64,000 nucleotides of DNA from Candidatus Saccharimonadia bacterium (GCA_038245115.1 JBBRSS010000004.1:1804-65803), one strand, 5' to 3'. Counted from the first letter of the stretch, positions 4,069-42,977 are shown. Translations and numbers: made by a program. The notes: generated by a model not told the origin, from the letters alone.

Positions 4069-5478
4069 ATGGCTAAACGCAATTCTTCTTCCAGACCAAT
4101 TCGCACTGCCCTGCAAAATCTCATGATTCGCGATGTCCCGTCCTATGCCAACAAGTTCGCCTATTCGCTGGGTTTTCTTTCGGCCGTCTCATTCTTTTTG
4201 CTAGTTGCCACCGGCATTATTATGGCTATGGCCGGGCCTCATTGGTGGATAACCAGCTCCTTAGGGCAGTATCTGCGCAGCTTCCATCTCTGGGCTACCC
4301 AAGCCTTCGTCGTATTTATCCTGCTGCATTTAACGATTGTATTTCTAACGTCAGGCTACAAAGGCTCCCGCAAATTCACCTGGGTGCTGGGCGTCTTGAT
4401 GTTCTTCTTTGCTCTAGCCGAAGCCGAATTCGGTTACGTATTGCGTGGAGATTTCTCCTCTCAATACCGCAGCCTGCAGGGTTCCGACCTCTACAACGGC
4501 AGCGGTATAGGCTGGGTTCTCAACAACCTCAACACCGGTCAAGTCATGGGCATTCACATTGCAGTATTGCCGCTGACCTTAATTGTCCTCATTCTGGCCC
4601 ATTATTTTCTTGTGCGGGTCCTTGGTATTGGCAAGCCGTCACCGGCCGCCGACGCTTACCCGATGGTCAAAGCGAATCACGGCTTACTATTTTGGCGCGG
4701 CGGTACCGTAATTGCGCTGGTGGCGGCCTTGGCCTTTGCTTACCCTTCGCCCTATTTGGCGCCGCTGACTATCAGCAAGATTGCCAGTGACGATCCGGCG
4801 CTAATTTCGCAAACCCTCGTTAAGGAATTTGACGGCACATCCGACACCGCCACCTATAAAAACAATATTGCCCCGTACACGTTTAATTCGCGGTCCGTCT
4901 ATATCGAGGCCCCCTATACGCAGCTTAAGGCTACCCAGACCACTCCTAGCCAATTGAAGCTGTTCCTGGCACAGCCAGCCGAGGTTCAAAAGACGCAGCT
5001 TGATGCCGCCACGGCGTTTTATGCTGCCGACCCAGTGAGCAAAACGCTGCCCAAGGGCAACCAGGCCATCGCCGTAGTCGACAGCCTTACGACCATGGCA
5101 AAAAGCGGCCTCTACGAAGCCGCTCTGCGCGACAGCAACGGATCCGGCTACCAAACTACTTATGTGGTCAGGTTCTTGTCTGATACTGGTGTACCCGAAG
5201 AAACCGCCACTAGTATGAATATGACCACAGATCAATACGGCATGGTTCGCGAAGAGGCCAACAGCCAAGCACCCGGCGCTTGGTGGCTGGCACCAATCGG
5301 GTTGCTCAACCACACCGTCCTGGCCAAAGATGAGGACAACGGCGACCGCGACGGTGCTATCATTATTGGCACCTCCTTGCTTCTGTTGCTGGCCTTTCCC
5401 TTTATTCCGTTCCTAAACCGGCTTCCTGAGGTGTTGCGTATACGCAAGCTGTTTTGGCGCAAACCAAGCTCCAAGTAG
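4069..5478 (+). CDS. Di-heme cytochrome b N-terminal-domain protein (b6 type) fused to a roughly 200-aa extracytoplasmic domain between two extra TM helices
   Basis: Helix B carries H-x13-H (FHLWATQAFVVFILLH) and helix D carries H-x14-H (GIHIAVLPLTLIVLILAH), which is the b6-type spacing. RKFTWVLGVLMFFFALAEAEFGYVLRGDFSSQ matches the cytochrome b TW..G....AF.GYVLPWGQMS block. The quinol-site C-terminal domain is absent, replaced by a TM, a soluble domain and a final TM. Confidence 0.65.
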   Translation: MAKRNSSSRPIRTALQNLMIRDVPSYANKFAYSLGFLSAVSFFLLVATGIIMAMAGPHWWITSSLGQYLRSFHLWATQAFVVFILLHLTIVFLTSGYKGSRKFTWVLGVLMFFFALAEAEFGYVLRGDFSSQYRSLQGSDLYNGSGIGWVLNNLNTGQVMGIHIAVLPLTLIVLILAHYFLVRVLGIGKPSPAADAYPMVKANHGLLFWRGGTVIALVAALAFAYPSPYLAPLTISKIASDDPALISQTLVKEFDGTSDTATYKNNIAPYTFNSRSVYIEAPYTQLKATQTTPSQLKLFLAQPAEVQKTQLDAATAFYAADPVSKTLPKGNQAIAVVDSLTTMAKSGLYEAALRDSNGSGYQTTYVVRFLSDTGVPEETATSMNMTTDQYGMVREEANSQAPGAWWLAPIGLLNHTVLAKDEDNGDRDGAIIIGTSLLLLLAFPFIPFLNRLPEVLRIRKLFWRKPSSK

Positions 5479-5540
5479 TTATCGCAAGGTTCTCCTGTCC
5501 TTCTCATCTAATTCTAAGCAAATCGTAGTACATTTGGCTC

Positions 5541-5993
5541 ATGAAAAAACTCTTACTAGGTGCATTTGTTGTCGGAAGCTATATCATATATAGCTTCCAT
5601 CAGCGCGGGGAGGGATCAGCGGCCGTGGTGCCGCCATCTATCCAATCCACGCCGCCCGCCTCAGGGGCTACTGCCACTCCAGGTGCTGCCTCTACGCCTG
5701 CTGTTGCCTATAAGGACGGGCAATATACCGGCCAGTCTGCCGATGCCTACTACGGCTACATTCAGGTAAAAGTGACGATCTCCGGGGGTAAACTGTCCAA
5801 CGTTGAATTCTTGCAATCTCCCAGTGATCGATCCACCTCGGTGCGAATTAACTCTCAAGCCATGCCCTACCTCAAACAGGAGGCCATACAGGCTCAGAGC
5901 GCCGGCGTAGACGGTGTTTCTGGCGCCACCGATACCAGCCAAGCTTTCATCCAGTCCCTAACATCTGCGCTCAAAGCCGCACAAGCAGCTTGA
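5541..5993 (+). CDS. Membrane-anchored FMN-binding-domain protein (FMN_bind), predicted ApbE flavinylation substrate
   Basis: N-terminal TM (LLLGAFVVGSYIIYSF), a Pro/Ala/Thr linker, the YKDGQYTG FMN_bind start, and the flavinylation motif VDGVSGAT (Thr codon at 5928-5930). Confidence 0.75.
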   Translation: MKKLLLGAFVVGSYIIYSFHQRGEGSAAVVPPSIQSTPPASGATATPGAASTPAVAYKDGQYTGQSADAYYGYIQVKVTISGGKLSNVEFLQSPSDRSTSVRINSQAMPYLKQEAIQAQSAGVDGVSGATDTSQAFIQSLTSALKAAQAA

Positions 5994-6733
5994 AACAGAC
6001 CCGACAAATAATGGGTATGCCGGTGACGCTTATTGTCGAGGATGAAACTGCCTCCGCAGACATATTTGATCAAGCCTATGCTTATTTTACGAAGGTCGAT
6101 CAAGCCTACAGCCCGTACATCGCCACCAGCGAAGTCTCGCGAATTAACTCTGGCCTGCCCGAATCTGATTGGAGCCCCCAAATTACCGAGGTCGCGCAAC
6201 TATGCCGCGACACCTCCACTGCCACCGATGGCTATTTCGACGCCTGGCATCACGGCAAATTCGATCCCTCCGGTATCGTCAAGGGCTGGGCTATCAATAA
6301 TGCCGCCAAGCTATTGAGCAGCCTTGGTTGTCAAAATTATTACGTTGAAGCGGGTGGCGACATTCAGGTGAGCGGTTTTAACGCTTCGCACGAACCTTGG
6401 CATATTGGCATTCGCAACCCGTTTGATCGCCGGCAGAACGTCAAGGTGGTCTCGCTTAGTACCCAGGGAATTGCCACCTCGGGGCTTTATATCCGCGGCG
6501 CACATATATACAACCCACACGATGATAAAGCGCAACTTTCCGAAGTCGCTTCTCTGAGCGTCATCGGGCCAAATATTTACGAAGCCGACCGCTTCGCCAC
6601 CGCTGCTTTTGCAATGGGCCCTGCCGGCATCAATTTTATCGAGTCGCTGCCGGGCCTAGAGGCTTATATGATAAATAAGTCAGGCCAGGCGACGCTCACA
6701 AGCGGCTTCGAGCAGTATGTGAGGGCTAATTGA
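5990..6733 (+). CDS. apbE: ApbE-family FAD:protein FMN transferase (short form with no signal peptide)
   Basis: MGMPVTLIV, FDPSGIVKGWA, AGGDI and NPHD blocks of ApbE. TTG start in a TTGA overlap with the upstream stop. 247 aa beginning directly at the conserved MG.P block. Paralog of 13712..14449. Confidence 0.7.
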   Translation: MKQTRQIMGMPVTLIVEDETASADIFDQAYAYFTKVDQAYSPYIATSEVSRINSGLPESDWSPQITEVAQLCRDTSTATDGYFDAWHHGKFDPSGIVKGWAINNAAKLLSSLGCQNYYVEAGGDIQVSGFNASHEPWHIGIRNPFDRRQNVKVVSLSTQGIATSGLYIRGAHIYNPHDDKAQLSEVASLSVIGPNIYEADRFATAAFAMGPAGINFIESLPGLEAYMINKSGQATLTSGFEQYVRAN

Positions 6734-8247
6734 TGAAATATCTCGATAAATTCCTCGACCGCATCACCATGTACCATTTGTTGGTCTATTACTTGTACGC
6801 GCTTCTGGGTGCTGCCATGCTATTGAGTGCAGTTGGCGCCTTGGCATATAATCCGCTGGCAATCGCTATTTCTGCCGGTTATTTAGTAGCGGTTTGCCTG
6901 GTAGCCAACCGTGTCTTTGCGGCCATCTTTAAAGCCCCAAGCAATCCTGAGTCATCCCTCATTACTGCCCTCATTTTGGCTTTAATTATTACGCCGCTAG
7001 CCTCTATCCAGAGCCTGGTATTCTTAACTGCCGCCGCCGGGCTCGCTATTGCCTCAAAGTATTTACTGACCATCCGGGGACGGCACATTTTTAACCCCGC
7101 CGCAGTGGCCGTAGCACTAACGGCGGTGGGCGCCGGCGAATCTGCCAGCTGGTGGGTGGGCAGCGCGGCTCTAGCTCCGGTGGTGATCATTGGCGGCATC
7201 ATGTTAGTACGCAAGGTCAGGCGGGTCCAGATGGTGGCGCTGTTCATTATCACTGCCGTGGTCGCTACGTCTATATTAACCATCATCAGCCAAGGCAATG
7301 TCGTCGGCGAAATCCAAAAAACCTTCCTGCAGTCATCATTGCTCTTTCTTGCATTTGTGATGCTCACTGAGCCGTTGACCTCGCCCGCACAAAGTCGTCA
7401 TCAACGCTGGTATGCCATATTGGCCGGGGTACTCTTTCCGCCCCAGATTCATTTGCTGTCGCTCTATTCCACGCCCGAACTTGTGCTGCTAATTAGTAAC
7501 ATCTATGCCTATATCGTTAATCCCAAGGTCAAGCTGTTGCCTTTGCTCCAAAAAAAGATTTCTTGGGGTCCGAATACTGCCGATTTTGTCTTTGCCCTCG
7601 ACCAGCCGATAGATTATTTGCCGGGACAATATATGGAATTTACTTTGCCGCACTCCAAACCGGACTCTCGCGGCAGCCGGCGTTACTTTACACTCGCGTC
7701 GTCACCAACTGAAAATAATCTTCGCTTGGGCGTTAAATTCTATCCCCGAGGCAGTACATTCAAACAGGCACTTCGCAACATGGGCAAGACTACGCCCTTC
7801 GCTGCGGCCCAGTTGAGTGGCGACTTTGTTCTCCCCAACGACTCTACCCGCAAACTCGCCTTCGTCGCCGGCGGTATCGGCGTGACACCATTTAGGAGTA
7901 TGATCAAATACTTGTCCGACACCGACGACCCCAGATCTGTGACCTTATTGTATTCCGAGCGGACCGCGGCCGATTTGGCGTACGTTGATGTATTCACGGC
8001 CGCCCAAGCCAAACCTGGGACCAAAATTGTCTATACCCTCACCGATGCCAACACAGCGGTACCGACAGGCATGCAGGCTGGGTTCATTACTGCCGAAATT
8101 ATTCAAGCCGAAATTCCTGACTACAAAGACCGTCTTTTCTACATTTCCGGGTCTCATTCTATGGTAAGTGCTATGCAGTCAGCCCTAGGCGAGCTCGGAG
8201 TATCTAAGCACAATATTAAGATTGATTTCTTCCCCGGCTACGTTTAA
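6733..8247 (+). CDS. Fusion of a polytopic membrane domain (NqrB/RnfD-like, HIFNPA motif) with an FNR-type FAD/NAD(P)-binding oxidoreductase domain
   Basis: N-terminal ~270 aa with about 8 TM and GRHIFNPAAV. C-terminal RRYFTLASSP (FAD RxYS/T motif) and AFVAGGIGVTPF (NAD GGxGxxP). TGATG overlap with apbE. Confidence 0.6.
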   Translation: MKYLDKFLDRITMYHLLVYYLYALLGAAMLLSAVGALAYNPLAIAISAGYLVAVCLVANRVFAAIFKAPSNPESSLITALILALIITPLASIQSLVFLTAAAGLAIASKYLLTIRGRHIFNPAAVAVALTAVGAGESASWWVGSAALAPVVIIGGIMLVRKVRRVQMVALFIITAVVATSILTIISQGNVVGEIQKTFLQSSLLFLAFVMLTEPLTSPAQSRHQRWYAILAGVLFPPQIHLLSLYSTPELVLLISNIYAYIVNPKVKLLPLLQKKISWGPNTADFVFALDQPIDYLPGQYMEFTLPHSKPDSRGSRRYFTLASSPTENNLRLGVKFYPRGSTFKQALRNMGKTTPFAAAQLSGDFVLPNDSTRKLAFVAGGIGVTPFRSMIKYLSDTDDPRSVTLLYSERTAADLAYVDVFTAAQAKPGTKIVYTLTDANTAVPTGMQAGFITAEIIQAEIPDYKDRLFYISGSHSMVSAMQSALGELGVSKHNIKIDFFPGYV

Positions 8248-13248: not shown

Positions 13249-13707
13249 ATGGTTATGAATAAACTCAACCCCAAGTCAGATAAGCCTCATCTGCCCGTCG
13301 CCGCTATAGTCGCCTGGGTTACCGCCCTGCTCGCCTCGGCCGCCAGCGTTTACTTTATCGAAATCTTGCACAACCCAGTTGCTACATTGTGTTGGGTTGA
13401 CCGAATGTTGGTCTTTTCGCTCCTGCTCGTGCTCACCGTTGGCATTATCGACCGAGACCGGCGCGTCGTGCGTTTTTGTTTCCCGTTTTTGGCCCTGGGT
13501 CTACCGCTGTCTTTCTATCAGCAGCTCGTGCATTGGGACCTCATCCACATCAATCCTCAGGTTTGCAGCATCAGCTATGTTTGTACAACCAAATATTTCA
13601 ATCTCTTCGGCATTATTACTCAAGCCACCCTCTGTTTTGCCGCTTTCGTCATTATTGCCGTGTCGATGTATATGCTGCGGGATCGTCACTTGCCAGCCAA
13701 GCCCTAG
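13249..13707 (+). CDS. DsbB/BdbC-family disulfide-oxidoreductase-like membrane protein with loop-1 CxxC replaced by TxxC
   Basis: Four TM. SVYFIEILHNPVATLCWVDRM aligns to the BdbC PCxLCWYQR block but keeps only one Cys. The second periplasmic loop keeps C-x5-C (CSISYVC) and the YFNLFG block. Confidence 0.5.
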   Translation: MVMNKLNPKSDKPHLPVAAIVAWVTALLASAASVYFIEILHNPVATLCWVDRMLVFSLLLVLTVGIIDRDRRVVRFCFPFLALGLPLSFYQQLVHWDLIHINPQVCSISYVCTTKYFNLFGIITQATLCFAAFVIIAVSMYMLRDRHLPAKP

Positions 13708-13711
13708 CTGG

Positions 13712-14449
13712 TTACGGCCGCTCAAACCTGCGAAAACCTTCGGTTAATACTACTCGGCCCTGCTTGTCGATCGACATTGCCTCGTAACCTTGTCTATGTA
13801 AAAACGGTAATGCTTGATCGCCCATGCAAAATGCCGCCGTCGCCAGAGCATCAACTTGGTCAATTGTTGGGCCGATTACGGTTAGACTCACCGGGTCCTC
13901 AACCATCTGCCCGGTTCGAGGATTGTATATATGGTTGCCGCGTTCGTAATTGCCCGAGGTAGCAACGGCCATATTTTTAAGGTAAAGCTTTTTTGCCAAC
14001 TTAGTGGGGTCAAAAGGATGGGCGATCCCGATAACCCATGGGCCTCCGGATGGTCCGTCGCCGCTAATCTGCATATCGCCCCCGGCATTAATGCAGTACC
14101 GGGTGATGTCGCGGCTGTTGAGGAGTCGTGCTGCGCGGTAAATAGCCCACCCCTTAACGTATCCGGACGGGTCGATATGCCCATCTCGTGCCACGTCAAA
14201 GTACCCTTCGGTCAATTTTTTCAAACGGGCGCATTCCTCCAGCACCGCCCGCAAATCATCACTCGATTTCGGCAACTCTAATTCGCCGCGGTTAAGCCGA
14301 CTAACCTCGCTTGTGGGCTTATAGGTACTAAACGCCTCGTCAACCTCGTGGAAATATTCAAATACATCGTCGATGGCGGCGTCCGCCGCATTGCCGTCAA
14401 GCACCTCTAGGGTGATAGGCATACCCATTATATTTTGTGAAACTTTCAT
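13712..14449 (-). CDS. apbE: ApbE-family FAD:protein FMN transferase, second paralog (no signal peptide)
   Basis: MGMPITLEV, HIDPSGYVKGWA, AGGDMQ and NPRTG blocks. Collinear with the 5990..6733 protein at about 40-50% identity. Confidence 0.7.
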   Translation of the reverse strand: MKVSQNIMGMPITLEVLDGNAADAAIDDVFEYFHEVDEAFSTYKPTSEVSRLNRGELELPKSSDDLRAVLEECARLKKLTEGYFDVARDGHIDPSGYVKGWAIYRAARLLNSRDITRYCINAGGDMQISGDGPSGGPWVIGIAHPFDPTKLAKKLYLKNMAVATSGNYERGNHIYNPRTGQMVEDPVSLTVIGPTIDQVDALATAAFCMGDQALPFLHRQGYEAMSIDKQGRVVLTEGFRRFERP

Positions 14450-14458
14450 GACTTTCTA

Positions 14459-16060
14459 TTGTACAATAACCATATGCACGATACGCCGCTAGAGAACGCG
14501 CAAAAGCTCATTTCGGAAGGAAAATCGACGGCCGAAATAAGGGCTGCTCTCAATGGCGAAAGCTTTGTGCCTTCGCCAGCTGTTGCGCCGCAGGCAAGCC
14601 TCACCCCCGCCGCCTCGAATGCAGCCTCTTCGCCCAAACCCAACGCCTCGGCTTCGCCTCAGCCGCCCGCTTCGGCCCCTCCTGCTCCCGCACCGAAGCC
14701 GATGGTCTACCCGCCGCTGCTGGATACGCCGCTACGGACGGGCGTTCAGGCCCCCAAGCTAGGCTGGCCGCTGATAGTGCTGGCCTGTTTAATACCGGCG
14801 CTCGCAATATCAGTCGATACGCCCTTTGCTGAGCGATTTGGTAGTTTATCGAATGCCCTTATTGCTTTCGGCGACATTACAGGTGTCATTGGCCTGGCGG
14901 CGTACGTTCTCAATTTGGTGCTGGCAACCCGCTTTCATTGGCTGGAAGATTTGTTTGGCGGCCTCAACCGCGCCCTGATAGCCCATCAAGTTTTGGGCGG
15001 CATAGCACTTATTATGCTGCTATTTCACCCCATCCTCACGGCAGCCTCTTACTATTCCTACGGTGTCCAGGCAGTTGCCCATTTTTTTGTGCCTTCGGTC
15101 GCCTATATTGGCACGGCTTTCGGTATTGTTGCTCTCGCGATGATCATCATCTTGTTGGTCCTGAGTTTCTATATCAAAATTGGCTACCGACTATGGCTGC
15201 AAACCCATAAATACCTTGGTCTGGCCTATCTCCTCATAATGCTGCATGTCCTATTGACGCCGAATCGCATCACGGCTGACCCGTTTGTTAAATGGTACCT
15301 GTACCTTCTTCTGGTTGTGGGGGCATTTGCCTTTATTTATCGCACGTTACTGCCAAATATATTCGTCCGCCGGTATCTGTATACCATTGCCGCTGCGCAG
15401 CCCAAAGGCATCGGCGTAGTCGAGGTTACGTTGGCGCCAGTGAACAAATCCGTCCACGTTCGAGCTGGGCAATTTATTTTTGTGACATTCAGTAGCGATG
15501 GGCTATCGTCCGAATCGCACCCTTTTAGCATCTCATCGGGCGAGAACTCCAACCAGCTGATGATCGACGTCAAGTCGCTCGGGTCGTATACGGAAACTCT
15601 CACCCGGCTTCTACCGCATATGGTTGGCATGACGGCTCAGGTTGAGGGAGCATATGGCCGATTTTCGTACCGCAACATTGGGAATTTAAACCAAGTTTGG
15701 ATTGGCGGGGGAATAGGTATAACGCCGTTTCTGAGTATGGCGCAAACTCTCGGATCCGGGCCGTATAATATCGACCTGTATTACTCGGTAAAGACGGCAA
15801 GTGAGCTAATTGACCTCGACACCCTGGCGATCCATCAATCCAACCTACCGGGCCAGGTGTTTCGGACTTTTCCGTTTATCACTGAAACTTACAAGTCGTA
15901 CTTGAGTGCCGGCATCATCAAGAAGAATAGCGGCAATCTCGATAAACGGGACTTCCTCTTGTGCGGCCCGCCCGGCATGATGCAGGAAATCAAGAAGCAG
16001 CTCATAAAGCTTGGGGTCAAAGAAACTCGGATTCACAGCGAAGAATTCTCGCTCGAATAA
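14459..16060 (+). CDS. NOX/ferric-reductase-family flavocytochrome: a 6-TM bis-heme domain plus FAD and NAD(P)H domains, with a Pro/Ala/Ser-rich N-terminal extension
   Basis: TM3 has H-x13-H (IAHQVLGGIALIMLLFH) and TM5 has H-x12-H (THKYLGLAYLLIMLH), the NOX spacing. HPFSISS is the FAD motif and GGGIGITPF the NAD motif. The first ~95 aa are low-complexity. Confidence 0.7.
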   Translation: MYNNHMHDTPLENAQKLISEGKSTAEIRAALNGESFVPSPAVAPQASLTPAASNAASSPKPNASASPQPPASAPPAPAPKPMVYPPLLDTPLRTGVQAPKLGWPLIVLACLIPALAISVDTPFAERFGSLSNALIAFGDITGVIGLAAYVLNLVLATRFHWLEDLFGGLNRALIAHQVLGGIALIMLLFHPILTAASYYSYGVQAVAHFFVPSVAYIGTAFGIVALAMIIILLVLSFYIKIGYRLWLQTHKYLGLAYLLIMLHVLLTPNRITADPFVKWYLYLLLVVGAFAFIYRTLLPNIFVRRYLYTIAAAQPKGIGVVEVTLAPVNKSVHVRAGQFIFVTFSSDGLSSESHPFSISSGENSNQLMIDVKSLGSYTETLTRLLPHMVGMTAQVEGAYGRFSYRNIGNLNQVWIGGGIGITPFLSMAQTLGSGPYNIDLYYSVKTASELIDLDTLAIHQSNLPGQVFRTFPFITETYKSYLSAGIIKKNSGNLDKRDFLLCGPPGMMQEIKKQLIKLGVKETRIHSEEFSLE

Positions 16061-16078
16061 GCAACCCGGTTTGGATTT

Positions 16079-17155
16079 CTAGCTTAGTAGATCGGCAACA
16101 AAAATTCCGATGAGGCTGACAAAGAACAGTATCAGTGAGACTCCCACCAGGGCTTTGATCGGCCTCGCGTGCCCGGAGCCAACCAACTTCAGCAGCCTTC
16201 GTCGCAAGACGTATACGGCTGCGGCGAACAGGGCGAAAACACTGCCGAATCCGATTAATATTCCCATTGGCAGAGGTTGTTTTGATGCCGCCGCCGTAAG
16301 CGAAAACTTTTCGCCCCCGGCCGTTCCTTGGACCGTCAGCTGAAACTGGCTCTTGTCGCCTTTGTATGTCACCTGCGCCAACTCTTGGCCCGCCGCAATA
16401 CCGCTAAAGAGCGCATCCCCCTTATCGTCTGTCGGCATAGTTTGGCCGCCCAGAGTCACCGTCGCGGCTACCGCTGGGCTGCCGTTTTTATCTGTGACAT
16501 GAATTAAGACCGTTCCAGGCAAAACCTCGGCCGCGGGCTGAGTCGGGTCGGTTGTTATAGGTTCGCTACTCACTACGGCTGGTGAGGGATTTGCATCTGG
16601 GGTTGCGCCGGGCGATGAGCCGGGTGATGCGTTTGTCGCCGGTGCCGGGGTGGTCGAGGGTGAGCCTGGCTTGGGAGTTGGCACGGGTGTGTGACCTGGG
16701 GCCACCGTTGGTGTCGGCGTGTGGGTTGGTAGGGGAGTTGGAGTGGGTGTGTGACCGGGGGCGGGAGTCGGCGCCGGCGTCGGTACAGGCGTCGGTTTGG
16801 GGGTCGGCACTGGCGTTGGTTTGGGCGTCGGCACCGGTGTTGGCACCGGCGTCGGTACTGGCGTCGGCTTTGGTGTCGGCACCGGCGTCGGCGTTGCGCA
16901 GGGCGTCGCGGTCGAACACGCATTAACACCAGTTGCCTTAAAGCCCCCGAGGACCTCATTTATTAATATTGTCACTCCCGACTTCGGGCCGTTCGATGCC
17001 ATACGGTCAGTATTGCCTGGTGTGCCGCTATATTTCTGAGCCGTCTGATTGATGTTGTATTGGCTTATCAATTCGTAGAGTATTGGCACAGCAAACACCC
17101 CCACCAAAATATAGGATCTGGTTAGGCGGCGCTTTAGGAGTTTTTGTCGCTTCAT
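16079..17155 (-). CDS. Cell-surface protein with a (PTPV/K)n proline-threonine repeat, an Ig-like/CarboxypepD_reg-like domain and a C-terminal LPMG-hydrophobic-RRR segment followed by another TM
   Basis: N-terminal signal anchor, roughly 100 aa of [12 protein letters not shown] repeats, then [28 protein letters not shown]. Start taken at the internal MKRQK. Confidence 0.5.
16768..16905. repeat. Tandem 12-nt repeat (GGCGTCGGCACC and variants) encoding the Pro-Thr-Pro-Val/Lys linker
   Basis: Period-12 repetition visible directly. It generates spurious ORFs on both strands. Confidence 0.7.
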
Positions 17156-17313
17156 TATGATAATACTATCACGCCTATGCTTTCCTCGATATACGCGCTG
17201 ACAAGCAACAATGAGGCTCCCGCGCCGAATAACCAGCAACGGCAGTCGGCAACTGTTTCAGCAATGATTCCAGATACGCTATACTAGTCGCGTACTTCAT
17301 CTCGGAGGCGCCC

Positions 17314-39643: not shown

Positions 39644-40765
39644 CTATCTCGTGTCGATTCCGACTGCTTCGCTGACACTGTTAAAATAATCACGCTTTAG
39701 TAGCTTCACTAGGCCCAAATTTATCTCAGAAATAGATTGTGGACCCTGATATATCATCCCAGTAATAAGCTGAATCAAGCTCGCGCCCAAGCGAATTTTC
39801 CGATAAGCATCTTCGGCAGTAAATACGCCGCCGCAGCCCATAACTAAATGTGTCCGCCCTACGCGTGAGTACACCCGCCTAATTTGTTCGTCGGACATTT
39901 CCTGCTGCACTTTGCCGCTCAGCCCGCCGGTGGGCGGCACATCCGCATCGAGAATATGCGGGTTGTCGCGTGGCTTGGTCAGATTTGAGCATATAAACCC
40001 CTCAATATTGTGGGCTAGAGTCACTTCCAGTAGATGATCCAACTCGATTTCACTCAAATCGGGCGAGAATTTAATAAAAACCGGCTTGGTGTGCTTCTGG
40101 CGGTCGACCGCACTAAGGAGTTTTTCCAACCGCGACGGGTTCGTAAACGGCTGGCCGCCAAAAGTGTTGGGGCAGGAAATATTGATGGTTACATAGGCGC
40201 CCACGCCCATAGTCGCCCGGTAGGCTTTCACGTAGTCGGCCACGCCTGCATCCTCATCCACCGTTGTCTCGGAGTTCGTTTTGGCTACACTAATGCCCAC
40301 GGGAACCGCGAACTTACGCCCTTGAAGTCGCTTGGCTATTGCCTCCGCTCCGTCGTTCATGAGCCCGTAATTCACTACCAGCGATTGGCTTTTTGGCAGC
40401 CGCCATAGTCTGGGCTTGGGGTTGCCGGCGCAGGGCTCGCCCGTAACCGAGCCGATTTCCATAAAACCGAATCCCACAGTAGGGATAAAATCCACTAGGC
40501 GGGCATTTTTGTCGAATCCGGCCGACAGCCCGATGGGGTTCACAAATTTAATCCCCAGAATTGTCTGCTCCAGCATTGGGTGTCGGTACCCGAATGCAGC
40601 CCGAGTTAGGCCCCGTCCCAGACCGTTGCGCCCGATTGCCTCGCCAATTTTAGAGATATTATCATGTACAACTTCCGGATCTTGGCGAAAAAATGCCGGC
40701 TTTAATGCGTGCGTATAGACCGCCGCCTCGAGTTTGTTGCGGGTTAAAATCAAAGTATCTTTCAT
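39644..40765 (-). CDS. pyrD: Dihydroorotate dehydrogenase (quinone), class 2
   Basis: GLSAGFDKN and GFGFMEIGSVT blocks, an N-terminal membrane-association helix. Start taken at MKDTL. Confidence 0.85.
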   Translation of the reverse strand: MKDTLILTRNKLEAAVYTHALKPAFFRQDPEVVHDNISKIGEAIGRNGLGRGLTRAAFGYRHPMLEQTILGIKFVNPIGLSAGFDKNARLVDFIPTVGFGFMEIGSVTGEPCAGNPKPRLWRLPKSQSLVVNYGLMNDGAEAIAKRLQGRKFAVPVGISVAKTNSETTVDEDAGVADYVKAYRATMGVGAYVTINISCPNTFGGQPFTNPSRLEKLLSAVDRQKHTKPVFIKFSPDLSEIELDHLLEVTLAHNIEGFICSNLTKPRDNPHILDADVPPTGGLSGKVQQEMSDEQIRRVYSRVGRTHLVMGCGGVFTAEDAYRKIRLGASLIQLITGMIYQGPQSISEINLGLVKLLKRDYFNSVSEAVGIDTR

Positions 40766-41387: not shown

Positions 41388-42977
41388 ATGATCAATACCC
41401 TCACTGCCGTCACTCCGGAAGTTCTAGAAGATATCGCCGCCGAACAGCGCCTGCGCCAAACCACCGAGGTATTTCTACTGTTCGCTATGGGCAGTCAATT
41501 CGACCATCTTATTAAGCTCCAGCTTGACCGTTTGGGGGTATATTGCCTGGTCGCCGACCCGTCGCACGTGAACGTCGAGGACGTGAAGCGGTTGGCCCCC
41601 ACCGGCATCATCGTCTCCGGCGGACCAGCCTCAGTTCATACCGATGCGGTTCCTTTCGATTCCGGAATTTATGAGCTTGGCATCCCGGTGCTGGGAATTT
41701 GCCTCGGTTTCCAGATGTGGGCCGCCCACCATGGGGCGGTAGTGGCGCCGGCACCTCAGCGCGAGTTTGGCGTTCACTCGCTCAATGTTGCTCAGGTAGA
41801 CTCGCCATTATTTGTGGGCATACCGGGCCACACTAAAGTGCTTCAAAGCCACGGTGACCGCATTGAGCCCGGAGACCAAATGGAAGTCCTCGCCGGCACC
41901 GACAATGCGCCAGTGGCGGCCGGTCACCTAGGCCACCTCTGGGGCGTGCAGTTTCATCCCGAGGTTACCGCCAGCGAGCACGGCGGTCAGGTGTTCGAAA
42001 ATTTCTGTTTCACCATATGCGGCGCCAAAGACCGTTTTCCGGCCGAAGATGTCGCCGGCCGCAAGGTAGCTGAGGTGCGTGAACGTGTCGGCACGGGCAA
42101 GGTCTTGTTGGCCCTATCTGGGGGTAGTGACTCATCCGTAGTGGCAACTATCCTTACCGCAGCCCTCAGTCCAGACCAGATCCGAGCCGTTTATATCCGC
42201 GGCATCGATCGCCCCGACGACGAAGCGTTTGTGCATCAATACTTTGGCCATCTCGACTTGGTAGTTTGCGATGCCACGGATGATTTTCTCGTCGCTTTGG
42301 CCGGTCACACCGGTATGCACGCCAAGCGCGTGGCCATGCGCGGGGTTTATAAACAAGTGCTCGAAAACGAAGTTACCAAATTTGGTGCCGATTTTATTGC
42401 CCAGGGCACACTGTACACCGACCTCACGGAGTCGGGCGGGGGACACAGCTCCGGCGCACGCAAAGCTCAGATCAAGCTTCATCATAATACCGGCCTCGAA
42501 TTTTCCTGTGCCGAACTCACTCCGCTCGACGATATGGTCAAAGACACCGCCCGCGCCGTCGGTCGCAGCCTAGGCACCCGCGAAGAACTACTAGTACGCC
42601 ATCCCTTTCCGGGGCCGGGTTTGGTAGTGCGCATAGAGGGTGAAGTCACTGCCGACAAACTCCGCATTGCGCGCGCCGCCGATGGTATCTACCTCGAGGA
42701 GTTGCGCGCCGCCGATTTGTACAATAGCGTTTGGCAGGCCGGCGCAGTGGTGACTCACTCGGTGGCGACATATTCCAAGGGCGATGATGCCGGCACCGGT
42801 TTGGTACTGGCAATCTGGGCCGTCTGGAGCGTTAACGGCTTTACCGCCGAGTGGGCCGAGTTGCCCTATGATTTCTTGCGCGGCCTATCGCGCCGCCTAA
42901 CCAATGAAATTCCCGAGCTGGCTTCGGTGGTCTACCGCATCTCCGACAAACCACCCGCCACGATCGAATGGGGGTAA
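41388..42977 (+). CDS. guaA: GMP synthase (glutamine-hydrolysing): class I GATase domain plus a PP-loop ATP pyrophosphatase
   Basis: GICLGFQMW with the conserved Cys; PP-loop LLALSGGSDSSVVA; C-terminal dimerisation domain. Confidence 0.8.
   Translation: MINTLTAVTPEVLEDIAAEQRLRQTTEVFLLFAMGSQFDHLIKLQLDRLGVYCLVADPSHVNVEDVKRLAPTGIIVSGGPASVHTDAVPFDSGIYELGIPVLGICLGFQMWAAHHGAVVAPAPQREFGVHSLNVAQVDSPLFVGIPGHTKVLQSHGDRIEPGDQMEVLAGTDNAPVAAGHLGHLWGVQFHPEVTASEHGGQVFENFCFTICGAKDRFPAEDVAGRKVAEVRERVGTGKVLLALSGGSDSSVVATILTAALSPDQIRAVYIRGIDRPDDEAFVHQYFGHLDLVVCDATDDFLVALAGHTGMHAKRVAMRGVYKQVLENEVTKFGADFIAQGTLYTDLTESGGGHSSGARKAQIKLHHNTGLEFSCAELTPLDDMVKDTARAVGRSLGTREELLVRHPFPGPGLVVRIEGEVTADKLRIARAADGIYLEELRAADLYNSVWQAGAVVTHSVATYSKGDDAGTGLVLAIWAVWSVNGFTAEWAELPYDFLRGLSRRLTNEIPELASVVYRISDKPPATIEWG

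What the first reader, a model, noticed from the sequence alone, without database searches (positions are those of the whole stretch)
13249..16060. Module B: DsbB/BdbC-like (TxxC), second ApbE and NOX-type flavocytochrome, 5 kb from module A
A second ApbE paralog is sandwiched between two divergently transcribed genes. One is a DsbB-family membrane protein. The other is a bona fide NOX/FRE-family enzyme with H-x13-H and H-x12-H bis-heme spacing, HPFSISS and GGGIGITPF. Their start codons are only 9 bp apart. The two ApbE-centred redox modules flank a marR-ABC exporter operon. This suggests a dedicated island for extracytoplasmic redox chemistry, for example metal, quinone or sulfoxide reduction or ROS generation. 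No flavinylation motif is evident in the NOX-like or DsbB-like proteins, so the substrate of ApbE2 is unclear.
Basis: partly seen in the sequence, partly recalled or inferred. Interest (0 to 1): 0.72.

Follow-up and report, generated by a model that had tools for sequence, protein, structure and literature searches.

The report
NOX-type electron exporter with dedicated ApbE
In this Saccharimonadia (CPR) bacterium, a bacterial NADPH-oxidase-like membrane enzyme sits back-to-back with its own flavin-attaching enzyme and next to a tethered surface protein with a possible flavin-attachment site, which gives a testable candidate for the unknown natural electron acceptor of bacterial NOX enzymes; the DsbB-like gene is only a neighbour.

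Summary
The three genes exist and their domain calls hold. They are a BdbC/DsbB-like protein, a short ApbE with no signal peptide, and an SpNOX-type flavocytochrome with H-x13-H, H-x12-H, HPFSI and GIGITP.

- The DsbB-like loop motif is A-T-L-C, not TxxC.
- DsbB and NOX lie on the same strand.
- The better-supported NOX start is ATG 14474, which is 24 bp from the ApbE2 start, not 9 bp.

The window comes from a Saccharimonadia genome. In related genomes only the divergent ApbE2|NOX pair is conserved (7 of 10 close loci). The pair shares an invariant palindrome, ATTGTACAAT, which reads as two back-to-back -10 boxes for leaderless mRNAs. DsbB, MarR and the ABC genes do not co-occur with it.

NOX-adjacent ApbE2 orthologs form their own clade. 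ApbE1 belongs to the FMN_bind/RnfD-FNR operon, the published "Nqr/Rnf-like" class. Module B is therefore a variant of the published "MsrQ-like" flavinylation-associated system that lacks its own FMN_bind gene.

In other CPR and DPANN genomes, NOX is followed by a tethered cytochrome b5 (31 of 78 loci). Here the conserved neighbour is instead a PT-rich membrane protein with a conserved [DN]-A-x-[ST]-x-A-[ST] site. This site is a candidate, unproven, ApbE2 substrate. I rate the finding a new variant of a known kind, of moderate interest.

The parts
13249..13707 (+). BdbC/DsbB-like 4-TM protein. Its first-loop CxxC is degenerate (A-T-L-C) and its second Cys pair is kept. It is a neighbour and not part of the conserved unit.
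   Evidence: Only three close homologs share AxxC. It is absent from other NOX loci and is not next to ApbE or NOX in L091.
13712..14449 (-). ApbE2, a short (245 aa) FAD:protein FMN transferase homolog with no signal peptide
   Evidence: Pfam ApbE at 156.9 bits. About 50 aa are deleted relative to solved ApbEs. Catalytic residues are invariant. The AlphaFold2 model has pLDDT 94.8 and query-normalised TM-score up to 0.91 to ApbE, FmnB and Ftp structures. The reading frame opens only 2 codons upstream of the ATG. NOX-adjacent orthologs are monophyletic.
14458..14467 (.). Perfect palindrome ATTGTACAAT between the two start codons. It reads as two overlapping TACAAT -10 boxes, 6 nt from the NOX ATG at 14474 and 8 nt from the ApbE2 ATG at 14449. 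This geometry implies a compact bidirectional promoter for leaderless mRNAs; an operator is also possible.
   Evidence: The sequence is identical in L081, L082, L084, L085, L086, L088 and L099, while the flanking intergenic bases vary. There is only one exact copy in the window. A -10-like hexamer lies 5-8 nt before the ATG of about ten other genes in the window.
14474..16060 (+). SpNOX-type flavocytochrome b. It has a small N-terminal helical domain, a Pro/Ala-rich linker, 6 TM helices with two bis-His heme sites, and an FAD/NAD(P)H dehydrogenase domain. An alternative TTG start lies at 14459.
   Evidence: The best match among solved structures is SpNOX (E = 4e-26). The AlphaFold2 model matches SpNOX 8qt6 at target-normalised TM-score 0.84.
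16079..17155 (-). PT-rich membrane protein, convergent with NOX. It has an N-terminal TM anchor, a juxtamembrane segment with a Cys-x5-Cys loop, a Pro/Thr linker, an Ig-like CarboxypepD_reg-type domain, and a C-terminal TM hairpin (GHARP loop). It is the candidate tethered acceptor of NOX. The longest ORF extends to the TTG at 17239.
   Evidence: Homologs lie directly downstream of NOX in L082, L084, L085, L086, L088 and L099, and next to FMN_bind/RnfD-FNR in L081. The CarboxypepD_reg match is weak. A -10-like hexamer precedes the ATG at 17155.
16904..16924 (-). Candidate ApbE flavinylation site N-A-C-S-T-A-T in the PT-rich protein. It fits a relaxed form, [DN]-A-x-[ST]-x-A-[ST], of the published motif D-x-x-[ST]-G-A-[ST].
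   Evidence: The site falls in the same alignment columns in all six ApbE-linked orthologs: NACSTAT, NACTSAT, DASSCAT (twice), DACSGAS and DACSTAS. L084, which lacks ApbE, lacks the site. The chance of a match in a shuffled juxtamembrane segment is 2-6%. This is unproven.
5541..5993 (+). FMN_bind protein of module A, carrying the only canonical flavinylation site (D-G-V-S-G-A-T) in the window. It is the alternative substrate for ApbE2.
   Evidence: It is conserved in an operon with ApbE1 and RnfD-FNR in L094-L098.
5990..6733 (+). ApbE1, a paralog 46% identical to ApbE2 that belongs to the FMN_bind operon
6730..8247 (+). RnfD/NqrB-like membrane domain fused to an FNR-type NAD(P)H domain (the Nqr/Rnf-like class)
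   Evidence: PMC8238504; PMC11334425
4069..5478 (+). Cytochrome b-like membrane protein upstream of module A
   Evidence: The same neighbour is found in L093.

Best explanation
The functional unit is ApbE2 | NOX | PT-rich membrane protein (13712-17155), not DsbB-ApbE2-NOX.

Shown: NOX is an SpNOX-type enzyme with every sequence and fold feature needed to carry electrons from cytoplasmic NAD(P)H through FAD and two b hemes to the outer face of the membrane. ApbE2 is an intact FMN transferase homolog. ApbE2 and NOX are transcribed divergently from one conserved palindrome. The -10 reading and the leaderless mRNAs are inferred from its geometry.

Inferred: ApbE2 attaches FMN covalently to the protein that takes electrons from the outer heme of NOX. 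The most likely target is the convergent, membrane-tethered PT-rich protein, at the threonine of its conserved N-A-C-S-T-A-T site. In this clade that protein would take the place of the tethered cytochrome b5 that follows NOX in other CPR genomes, a flavin-for-heme swap. The flavinylated tether would then pass electrons to an unknown external acceptor such as oxygen, iron, or a host-surface or cell-wall substrate.

Neither ApbE has an export signal, so flavinylation would have to happen in the cytoplasm before the target segment is translocated.

Module A (cytochrome b, FMN_bind, ApbE1, RnfD-FNR) is a separate Nqr/Rnf-like system with its own ApbE.
For: NOX identity:
- Pfam domains.
- Invariant bis-His pairs, HPFS and GGIGITPF motifs.
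- SpNOX is the top hit by sequence and by fold.

ApbE2 is intact:
-.

Pairing of ApbE2 and NOX:
- A divergent ApbE|NOX pair with an 18-27 bp gap is found in L081, L082, L085, L086, L088 and L099, at 51-72% NOX identity. Genes beyond ApbE differ between loci.
- The palindrome ATTGTACAAT is invariant.
- NOX-adjacent ApbE2 orthologs are monophyletic and distinct from FMN_bind-adjacent ApbE1. FMN_bind stays with ApbE1 and RnfD-FNR.

Partner logic:
- In 31 of 78 more distant NOX loci, a gene for a TM anchor, linker and Cyt-b5 domain lies directly downstream. b5-like proteins follow NOX in further Saccharibacteria loci.
- The window clade has no Cyt-b5. It has the PT-rich protein instead.
- The motif is conserved in register in six ApbE-linked orthologs and is fully canonical (D-A-C-S-G-A-S) in L086 and L099. 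It is absent in L084, which also lacks ApbE.

Literature:
- A 7-residue linear motif suffices for ApbE. D-to-A has a minor effect and G-to-A keeps about 50% flavinylation (PMC12052999).
- The SpNOX authors suggest an unknown protein acceptor (PMC11564096).

Electron donor:
- G6PD, an NADPH source, lies beside ApbE in L086, L088 and L099.
Against: - The motif's glycine position is T, S or C in most orthologs. The window copy has N instead of the conserved D.
- The relaxed pattern also occurs in four unrelated real proteins in the window, and by chance in 2-6% of shuffled juxtamembrane segments.
- The site sits in a Cys-x5-Cys loop that resembles the loop preceding the b5 domain in other NOX partners. 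Its conservation may therefore be structural rather than due to flavinylation.
- Profile comparison finds no homology to FMN_bind.
- The independent sample is small: about four lineages with ApbE and one informative lineage without.
- ApbE2 has no signal peptide, while the site is predicted to lie outside the cell.
- DPANN ApbE-NOX operons have no motif-bearing neighbour.
- In L081 the PT-rich ortholog sits beside module A rather than beside NOX.
- The database search for more orthologs returned only 4 proteins.
Confidence: 0.4

Rival explanations
1. ApbE2 flavinylates the module-A FMN_bind protein (5541-5993) in trans. NOX and RnfD-FNR would then be two alternative NAD(P)H-driven inputs to the same extracytoplasmic flavoprotein, as in the actinobacterial MsrQ-like operon. 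The PT-rich protein would be an unrelated surface protein.
For: - FMN_bind carries the only canonical D-x-x-S-G-A-T site in the window.
- The Actinoplanes archetype is an operon of NOX-like, FMN_bind and short ApbE genes. Its ApbE groups with the ApbE2 clade.
- Saccharibacteria loci L002, L003 and L005 have an FMN_bind-like gene and ApbE next to two NOX paralogs.
- In L081 both ApbE genes flank NOX, and FMN_bind is 5 kb away.
Against: - FMN_bind is consistently adjacent to ApbE1 and RnfD-FNR.
- L082, L085, L086, L088 and L099 have ApbE2 and NOX with no FMN_bind within the sequence held for each locus (up to 10 kb on each side) (for L082-L088; for L099, by the listed Pfam domains only).
- Two distinct ApbE paralog lineages are maintained. 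That is hard to explain if both serve a single substrate.
Confidence: 0.25
2. ApbE2 works in the cytoplasm on NOX itself or on its flavin supply. It could tether FMN to the dehydrogenase domain or act as an FAD-handling or pyrophosphatase factor. No extracytoplasmic flavoprotein would be involved.
For: - ApbE2 has no signal peptide.
- Cytosolic ApbEs are known (PMC12052999).
- ApbE-NOX two-gene operons without FMN_bind or a motif-bearing neighbour occur in DPANN archaea, at L025 and L039.
Against: - NOX has no [ST]GA[ST]-like site.
- No Ser or Thr is specific to ApbE-linked NOX proteins and shared between the Saccharimonadia and DPANN cases.
- The flavin-contacting residues (HPFS, G375/T378) are common to all NOX homologs, with or without an ApbE neighbour.
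Confidence: 0.12
3. There is no functional coupling. NOX acts alone, for example reducing O2 to superoxide or reducing iron as SpNOX does in vitro. ApbE2 serves targets elsewhere in the genome, and the adjacency is inherited synteny within one family-level clade.
For: - Most CPR NOX loci have no ApbE within 10 kb (74 of 80).
- L084, L087 and L100 in the same clade lack ApbE.
- L084 keeps the palindrome without ApbE.
- SpNOX is active on its own in vitro (PMC5676040; PMC11564096).
Against: - The pair and its shared promoter persist down to 51% NOX identity while the other flanking genes turn over.
- The ApbE2 clade is defined by its NOX adjacency.
- A tethered redox partner gene directly after NOX is the rule elsewhere.
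Confidence: 0.15
4. One reading: DsbB-like, ApbE2 and NOX, together with module A and the MarR/ABC operon, form one dedicated extracytoplasmic redox island.
For: The genes are physically close in this window. Both modules also lie within 7 kb of each other in L081.
Against: - The DsbB-like gene is absent from all 88 NOX loci tested with it and from the context of its own close homolog.
- MarR and ABC are generic, score below every specific family cut-off, and are not conserved neighbours.
- The DsbB-like protein lacks the first Cys of its CxxC.
Confidence: 0.05

Closest known systems
'MsrQ-like' flavinylation-associated transmembrane electron-transfer system (Meheust et al. 2021, eLife, PMC8238504)
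   Same: A PF01794 bis-heme membrane domain is fused to a C-terminal PF00175 NAD(P)H domain and is encoded next to apbE. The proposed flow runs from NAD(P)H across the membrane to a flavinylated extracytoplasmic acceptor. The Actinoplanes example has the same short ApbE with no signal peptide.
   Different: - Module B has no FMN_bind gene.
- The NOX here is SpNOX-like and only 25% identical to the actinobacterial partner.
- ApbE is divergent from NOX rather than co-directional, and shares a palindromic promoter with it.
- The class was reported mainly in Actinobacteria, with flavinylation components described as strikingly under-represented in CPR.
SpNOX, the Streptococcus pneumoniae NADPH oxidase (PDB 8qq7, 8qt6; PMC5676040, PMC11564096)
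   Same: It is the best match by sequence and by fold over both the TM and dehydrogenase domains. It has the same heme-ligand spacing and the same FAD and NADPH motifs.
   Different: The window protein has an extra N-terminal helical domain plus a roughly 60-residue Pro/Ala linker, and clade-specific Tyr-rich outer loops. It is paired with ApbE and a tethered partner gene. The physiological acceptor of SpNOX is unknown.
CPR 'pFre'-cytochrome b5 gene clusters (bioRxiv 10.1101/2021.11.17.468889)
   Same: The same family of PF01794 ferric-reductase-like genes occurs in CPR genomes, each with a membrane-anchored redox partner encoded alongside.
   Different: This window has no cytochrome b5 or b5-like gene. 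ApbE plus a PT-rich protein occupy the partner positions.
'Nqr/Rnf-like' system (PMC8238504; PMC11334425)
   Same: Module A (FMN_bind, ApbE1, RnfD-FNR fusion) fits the published definition. The class was reported in Actinobacteria and CPR.
   Different: This is the neighbouring module and not the finding itself. Here it also has a cytochrome b gene upstream.
BdbC/DsbB disulfide oxidoreductases
   Same: Four-TM layout by alignment, the conserved W and R after the first-loop motif, and the second Cys pair.
   Different: The first Cys of CxxC is replaced by Ala in this protein and its three closest homologs. Scores fall below curated thresholds. There is no conserved link to ApbE or NOX.

Membership tests
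NOX/FRE family (computational filters of Hajjar et al. 2017, PMC5676040) | FAD-binding motif H[PSA]F[TS][LIMV] | tested here: met
   HPFSI is present. H354, P355 and F356 are invariant in 22 homologs.
NOX/FRE family | [quoted passage not shown] | tested here: met
   GIGITP lies within GGGIGITPF and is invariant.
NOX/FRE family | Two bis-histidyl heme motifs (H-x12/14-H) in separate TM helices | tested here: met
   H176-x13-H190 and H250-x12-H263. All four histidines are invariant and fall in predicted helices 169-196 and 243-266.
NOX/FRE family | Six-TM domain followed by a C-terminal FNR-type dehydrogenase domain; overall NOX fold | tested here: met
   The AlphaFold2 model has pLDDT 80.8, with the low-confidence residues confined to the N-terminal linker. 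Foldseek gives target-normalised TM-score 0.84 to SpNOX 8qt6, followed by DUOX1, NOX5 and NOX2.
NOX/FRE family | NAD(P)H-dependent reduction of O2 or another outer acceptor | not testable with these tools
   This needs an enzyme assay.
ApbE (FAD:protein FMN transferase) | ApbE domain and fold | tested here: met
   PF02424 at 156.9 bits against a cut-off of 25.6. Query-normalised TM-score is 0.83-0.91 to 1vrm, 6nxi, 7esa and 4ifu. The protein is a compact form with about 50 aa deleted.
ApbE | Catalytic and Mg/FAD residues (V. cholerae Ser241, His257, Asp285 equivalents) | tested here: met
   S165, H173, D200 and T204 are invariant across 45 short ApbEs.
ApbE | N-terminal signal peptide or lipobox (typical extracytoplasmic ApbE) | tested here: not met
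   The protein starts 7 residues before the conserved MGMP core. The reading frame is open for only 2 codons upstream. Cytosolic ApbEs are known.
ApbE | FMN transfer to a protein Thr or Ser | not testable with these tools
   This needs co-expression and mass spectrometry.
MsrQ-like flavinylation-associated system (PMC8238504) | [quoted passage not shown] | tested here: met
   ApbE2 is 24 bp from the PF01794 gene.
MsrQ-like flavinylation-associated system | An FMN-binding-domain gene in the cluster (described as typical) | tested here: not met
   There is none in module B. The nearest is 8.5 kb away, inside the ApbE1/RnfD-FNR operon.
MsrQ-like flavinylation-associated system | [quoted passage not shown] | tested here: not met
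   ApbE2 has none. The module-A FMN_bind protein has an N-terminal hydrophobic anchor.
DsbB/BdbC | Family profile match above the curated threshold | tested here: inconclusive
   Pfam DsbB scores 19.1 against 22.1. NCBIfam PRK03113 gives E = 6e-21 but 75 bits against a cut-off of 124. Alignment with B. subtilis BdbC and homologs is convincing.
DsbB/BdbC | CxxC in the first extracytoplasmic loop | tested here: not met
   The sequence is A-T-L-C. More distant homologs all have C-x-L-C.
DsbB/BdbC | Second Cys pair in loop 2 | tested here: met
   C106 and C112 are nearly invariant.
CPR pFre-cytochrome b5 cluster (bioRxiv 10.1101/2021.11.17.468889) | A cytochrome b5-domain gene within 10 kb of the PF01794 gene | tested here: not met
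   No real ORF in the window carries HPGG or a Cyt-b5 domain. The feature is present in 31 of 78 other loci.
ApbE substrate (for the PT-rich protein) | Flavinylation motif D-x-x-[ST]-G-A-[ST] | tested here: inconclusive
   The window copy is N-A-C-S-T-A-T, so D is N and G is T. L086 and L099 are canonical (D-A-C-S-G-A-S). Positions 1, 4, 6 and 7 are conserved within the allowed residue sets. There is no homology to FMN_bind.

The most novel reading that the evidence does not exclude
The PT-rich, largely disordered membrane protein would be a new class of ApbE substrate. A bare linear flavinylation site, flanked by two cysteines and held at the membrane surface, would be modified by a dedicated cytoplasmic ApbE before export. 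It would serve as the physiological outer-face electron acceptor of a bacterial NOX, replacing the tethered cytochrome b5 used by other CPR and DPANN lineages. This would give the first natural protein acceptor for an SpNOX-type enzyme and a natural counterpart of the engineered 'flavin-tag'.
Probability: 0.3. Interest if true: 0.75.

Novelty: new variant of a known kind. Interest (0 to 1): 0.55.

Why it matters
Bacterial NOX homologs such as SpNOX are well characterised structurally, but their physiological electron acceptor is unknown. The authors of the SpNOX structure explicitly suspect a protein partner.

CPR bacteria lack respiratory chains, yet they widely keep this enzyme next to a tethered redox protein. 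The clade in this window swaps the heme partner for a dedicated ApbE plus a motif-bearing tether.

If the swap is confirmed, it would name a natural acceptor and extend the list of ApbE substrates beyond folded domains. It would also raise the question of how ApbEs without a signal peptide, a very large clade that includes Actinobacteria, modify proteins destined for the outside of the cell.

If it is not confirmed, the locus is still a clean CPR example of two already-described flavinylation-associated system classes.

Tried and rejected
1. DsbB-like as a module member. jackhmmer against ORFs of the 88 NOX loci then in hand found none. The only contexts of close homologs (L090, a 728-bp contig with no neighbouring gene, and L091) show no ApbE or NOX. 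Rejected.
2. A flavinylation site in NOX. There is no [ST]GA[ST]. A comparison of ApbE-linked and unlinked NOX proteins found only clade-specific residues, none shared with the DPANN cases.
3. Homology of the PT-rich juxtamembrane segment to FMN_bind. hhalign probability was 1.4%. Rejected.
4. More PT-rich orthologs. A profile search returned only 4 proteins, 3 of them already known. Gene callers truncate this gene; P0393 is 164 aa.
5. A metagenome scan with FMN_bind returned only 6 short loci. These were useful only to show the FMN_bind-ApbE1-RnfD-FNR linkage.
6. A motif-bearing neighbour in the DPANN ApbE-NOX operons. None found.
7. A redox-specific identity (CydDC-like) for the ABC pair. 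Their best matches are generic MsbA/Smd-type families, and every match is below its cut-off.
8. A consensus sigma-70 scan found no full -35/-10 promoter in the ApbE2-NOX gap.
9. The second near-copy of the palindrome, at 42716, lies inside an ORF and is within chance expectation.

Full report
**What is there.** The region holds three real ORFs.
- 13249-13707 (+) encodes a 152-aa BdbC/DsbB-like membrane protein.
- 13712-14449 (-) encodes a 245-aa ApbE.
- 14459/14474-16060 (+) encodes a 533/528-aa protein with Ferric_reduct, FAD_binding_8 and NAD_binding_1 domains.

In an alignment of 22 homologs, H176, H190, H250 and H263 are invariant, giving H-x13-H and H-x12-H spacing. The HPFS and GGIGITPF motifs are also invariant. 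The best match among solved structures is the Streptococcus pneumoniae NADPH oxidase SpNOX, across both the membrane and dehydrogenase domains (E = 4e-26). An AlphaFold2 model matches SpNOX at target-normalised TM-score 0.84, ahead of DUOX1, NOX5 and NOX2. All computational filters used to define bacterial NOX (PMC5676040) are met. Best hits place the window in Candidatus Saccharimonadia, within Patescibacteria/CPR.

**Corrections to the observation.**
- The DsbB-like first-loop motif is A-T-L-C. The first Cys of CxxC is Ala in this protein and its three closest homologs, whereas more distant homologs all have C-x-L-C. The second Cys pair is kept.
- The DsbB-like profile scores fall below curated cut-offs.
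- DsbB and NOX are co-directional. DsbB and ApbE2 are convergent. Only ApbE2 and NOX are divergent.
- The 9-bp start-to-start distance depends on a TTG that lies inside a conserved palindrome. Orthologs and the identical database protein (528 aa) start at the ATG at 14474, which gives 24 bp.

**ApbE2 is intact.**
- It lacks about 50 residues present in solved ApbEs and has no signal peptide. Its reading frame opens only 2 codons upstream of the ATG.
- It belongs to a very large clade of 237-293-aa ApbEs that includes Actinobacteria and Chloroflexota.
- The equivalents of V. cholerae Ser241, His257 and Asp285 (here S165, H173 and D200), plus T204, are invariant in 45 members.
- Its model has pLDDT 94.8 and superposes on ApbE, FmnB and Ftp structures at query-normalised TM-score 0.83-0.91.
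- ApbE1 and ApbE2 are 46% identical.

**What co-occurs.** I examined ten loci carrying the closest NOX relatives (48-72% identity).
- Seven have ApbE divergent from NOX: the window, L081, L082, L085, L086, L088 and L099. The gap is 18-27 bp at the published gene starts, or at the re-read starts for L081 and L099. Genes beyond ApbE differ between loci: DsbB-like, NmrA, an unknown gene, Big_13, or G6PD in three loci.
- Three lack ApbE: L084, L087 and L100.
- Among 80 more distant NOX loci from Patescibacteria, DPANN and Actinomycetota, ApbE lies within 10 kb in only six.
- The DsbB-like gene is found in none of the 88 NOX loci tested with it. The only close homolog with usable context is not near ApbE or NOX.
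- The MarR and ABC genes are generic and are not conserved neighbours.
- In a tree of ApbEs, the NOX-adjacent proteins form one clade and the FMN_bind-adjacent proteins form another.
- FMN_bind relatives recovered from metagenomes are always followed by ApbE1, and by RnfD-FNR where the contig extends far enough. A cytochrome b gene lies upstream in one of them.

Module A therefore matches the published Nqr/Rnf-like class. Module B falls under the published MsrQ-like class (PMC8238504; PMC11334425). An Actinoplanes operon shows the archetype of that class: NOX-like, FMN_bind and short ApbE. Module B differs from the archetype in two ways. It has no FMN_bind gene, and its NOX is only 25% identical to the actinobacterial one.

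**The shared promoter.** The palindrome ATTGTACAAT lies between the two start codons at 14458-14467. It is identical in L081, L082, L084, L085, L086, L088 and L099, while the surrounding intergenic bases vary.
- It reads as two overlapping TACAAT -10 hexamers. One ends 6 nt before the NOX ATG. The other ends 8 nt before the ApbE2 ATG.
- About ten other genes in the window, including the DsbB-like and PT-rich genes, have a -10-like hexamer 5-8 nt before their ATG.
- This points to leaderless mRNAs and a compact bidirectional promoter.
- L084 keeps the palindrome without ApbE, so it may also act as an operator. That part is inference.

**The partner of NOX.** In 31 of 78 evaluable distant loci, the gene immediately after NOX encodes an N-terminal TM anchor, a low-complexity linker and a Cyt-b5 domain (PF00173, E = 1e-12 to 1e-22). 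In other Saccharibacteria loci the same position holds a b5-like protein. A preprint already reported that ferric-reductase-like genes and cytochrome b5 genes colocalise in CPR genomes (10.1101/2021.11.17.468889).

The window has no b5 gene. The gene convergent with NOX (16079-17155) instead encodes a protein with this layout:
- an N-terminal TM anchor;
- a short juxtamembrane segment;
- a Pro/Thr linker;
- an Ig-like domain;
- a C-terminal TM hairpin.

Homologs occupy the same position in L082, L084, L085, L086, L088 and L099. In L081 the homolog lies beside module A.

**The candidate flavinylation site.** The juxtamembrane segment carries, in the same alignment columns, NACSTAT (window), NACTSAT, DASSCAT (twice), DACSGAS and DACSTAS. 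These fit a relaxed form of the ApbE motif D-x-x-[ST]-G-A-[ST]. Published work shows that 7 residues are sufficient, that D-to-A has little effect, and that G-to-A keeps about half the flavinylation (PMC12052999). L084 has lost ApbE, and its homolog lacks the site.

Four observations together suggest that ApbE2 flavinylates this tether and that it replaces cytochrome b5 as the outer acceptor:
- a dedicated ApbE clade;
- a partner without a heme domain;
- a motif conserved in register;
- loss of ApbE and motif together in L084.

G6PD beside ApbE in three loci fits NADPH as the electron donor.

**Why this remains a hypothesis.**
- The window copy has N where the motif has D, and T where it has G.
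- The relaxed pattern occurs by chance in 2-6% of shuffled segments and in four unrelated real proteins in the window.
- The site lies in a Cys-x5-Cys loop like the one before the b5 domain of other NOX partners. Its conservation could therefore be structural.
- hhalign finds no relation to FMN_bind.
- The number of independent lineages is small.
- ApbE2 is predicted to be cytoplasmic, while the site is predicted to lie outside the cell.
- The DPANN ApbE-NOX operons have no motif-bearing neighbour.

The main rival is that ApbE2 modifies the module-A FMN_bind protein in trans. Lesser rivals are a cytoplasmic role in flavin handling, or no functional coupling at all.

**Verdict.** The 'island' interpretation is partly right. 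The conserved unit is ApbE2 | NOX | PT-rich protein, with a shared palindromic promoter. DsbB, MarR and ABC are bystanders. The system is a new variant of the known MsrQ-like, flavinylation-associated, SpNOX-type kind. It yields a specific, testable and potentially novel candidate for the acceptor.

Noticed in passing
window 14458-14467; also window 13249, 17155, 21209, 26363, 40765/40832, 53592: Many first genes of transcription units have a -10-like hexamer (TAnnnT) 5-8 nt before the ATG and no Shine-Dalgarno sequence. This suggests that leaderless mRNAs are common in this genome. The genes at 40765(-) and 40832(+) form a second divergent pair of this kind.
   Followed up: partly
L012, L015, L016, L018, L020-L023, L030, L034-L036, L041-L044, L048-L051, L057, L059, L064-L066, L068, L070, L072, L075, L077, L078 (gene directly after NOX): In 31 of 78 NOX loci across Patescibacteria and DPANN, the next gene encodes a TM anchor, a linker and a cytochrome b5 domain. 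Other Saccharibacteria loci (L001-L014, L062) have a b5 or b5-like domain (GNCWGW...) preceded by a Cys-x5-Cys loop. This colocalisation was reported in a 2021 preprint, but its function is unknown.
   Followed up: partly
window 4069-8247; L093-L098: Module A is a conserved operon of FMN_bind, ApbE1 and an RnfD-FNR fusion. Here and in L093 it has a cytochrome b-like gene upstream, with weak ExtP and DUF4405 similarity. The ApbE1 reading frame is open for 46 codons upstream of its TTG, overlapping the end of FMN_bind.
   Followed up: partly
L086 7768-9234, L088 5503-6786, L099 2842-4308: Glucose-6-phosphate dehydrogenase lies immediately beside the NOX-linked ApbE and convergent with it. This hints at a local NADPH supply.
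   Followed up: no
window 13249-13707; P0241, P0242, P0244: A small subclade of BdbC-like proteins has AxxC instead of CxxC in loop 1 but keeps the second Cys pair. This is unusual for a quinone-dependent disulfide oxidoreductase.
   Followed up: partly
window 14474-14780 (NOX residues 1-100): NOX in this clade has an N-terminal domain of about 30 residues that the model predicts as two helices. Relatives give sub-threshold matches to the three-helix RecX_HTH Pfam families. A roughly 60-residue Pro/Ala-rich disordered linker follows. P0031 carries the domain twice.
   Followed up: partly
L087 11626-11814; L100 8052-8249: In the NOX lineage without ApbE, a conserved 62-65-aa single-TM protein (...NGLFDP.xPPI) overlaps the NOX stop codon. 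It may be a small subunit.
   Followed up: no
window 16079-17239 (database protein P0393, 164 aa): The public annotation of this same contig calls only the C-terminal 164 residues of the PT-rich protein. The N-terminal anchor and the candidate flavinylation site are therefore invisible in protein databases. The L086 homolog is truncated in the same way (P0394).
   Followed up: yes
L025 5432-8029; L039 4684-7128: DPANN archaeal contigs carry ApbE and NOX as a co-directional, overlapping pair. A small protein with an N-terminal TM helix and a low-complexity region follows, ending in ...TRAS. No FMN_bind gene and no flavinylation motif are nearby.
   Followed up: partly
window 5990-6733 and 13712-14449; L089 6001-6750: The whole clade of short ApbEs, including the Actinoplanes example, lacks signal peptides, while its FMN_bind partners have N-terminal anchors. 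The Actinoplanes partner starts MRRST..., which may be Tat-like. How these ApbEs reach their substrates is unexplained.
   Followed up: no
L002 7005-9856, L003, L005: These Saccharibacteria loci have an FMN_bind-like protein whose site is V-G-G-A-S rather than SGAT. It lies next to a long ApbE and two divergent NOX paralogs.
   Followed up: no
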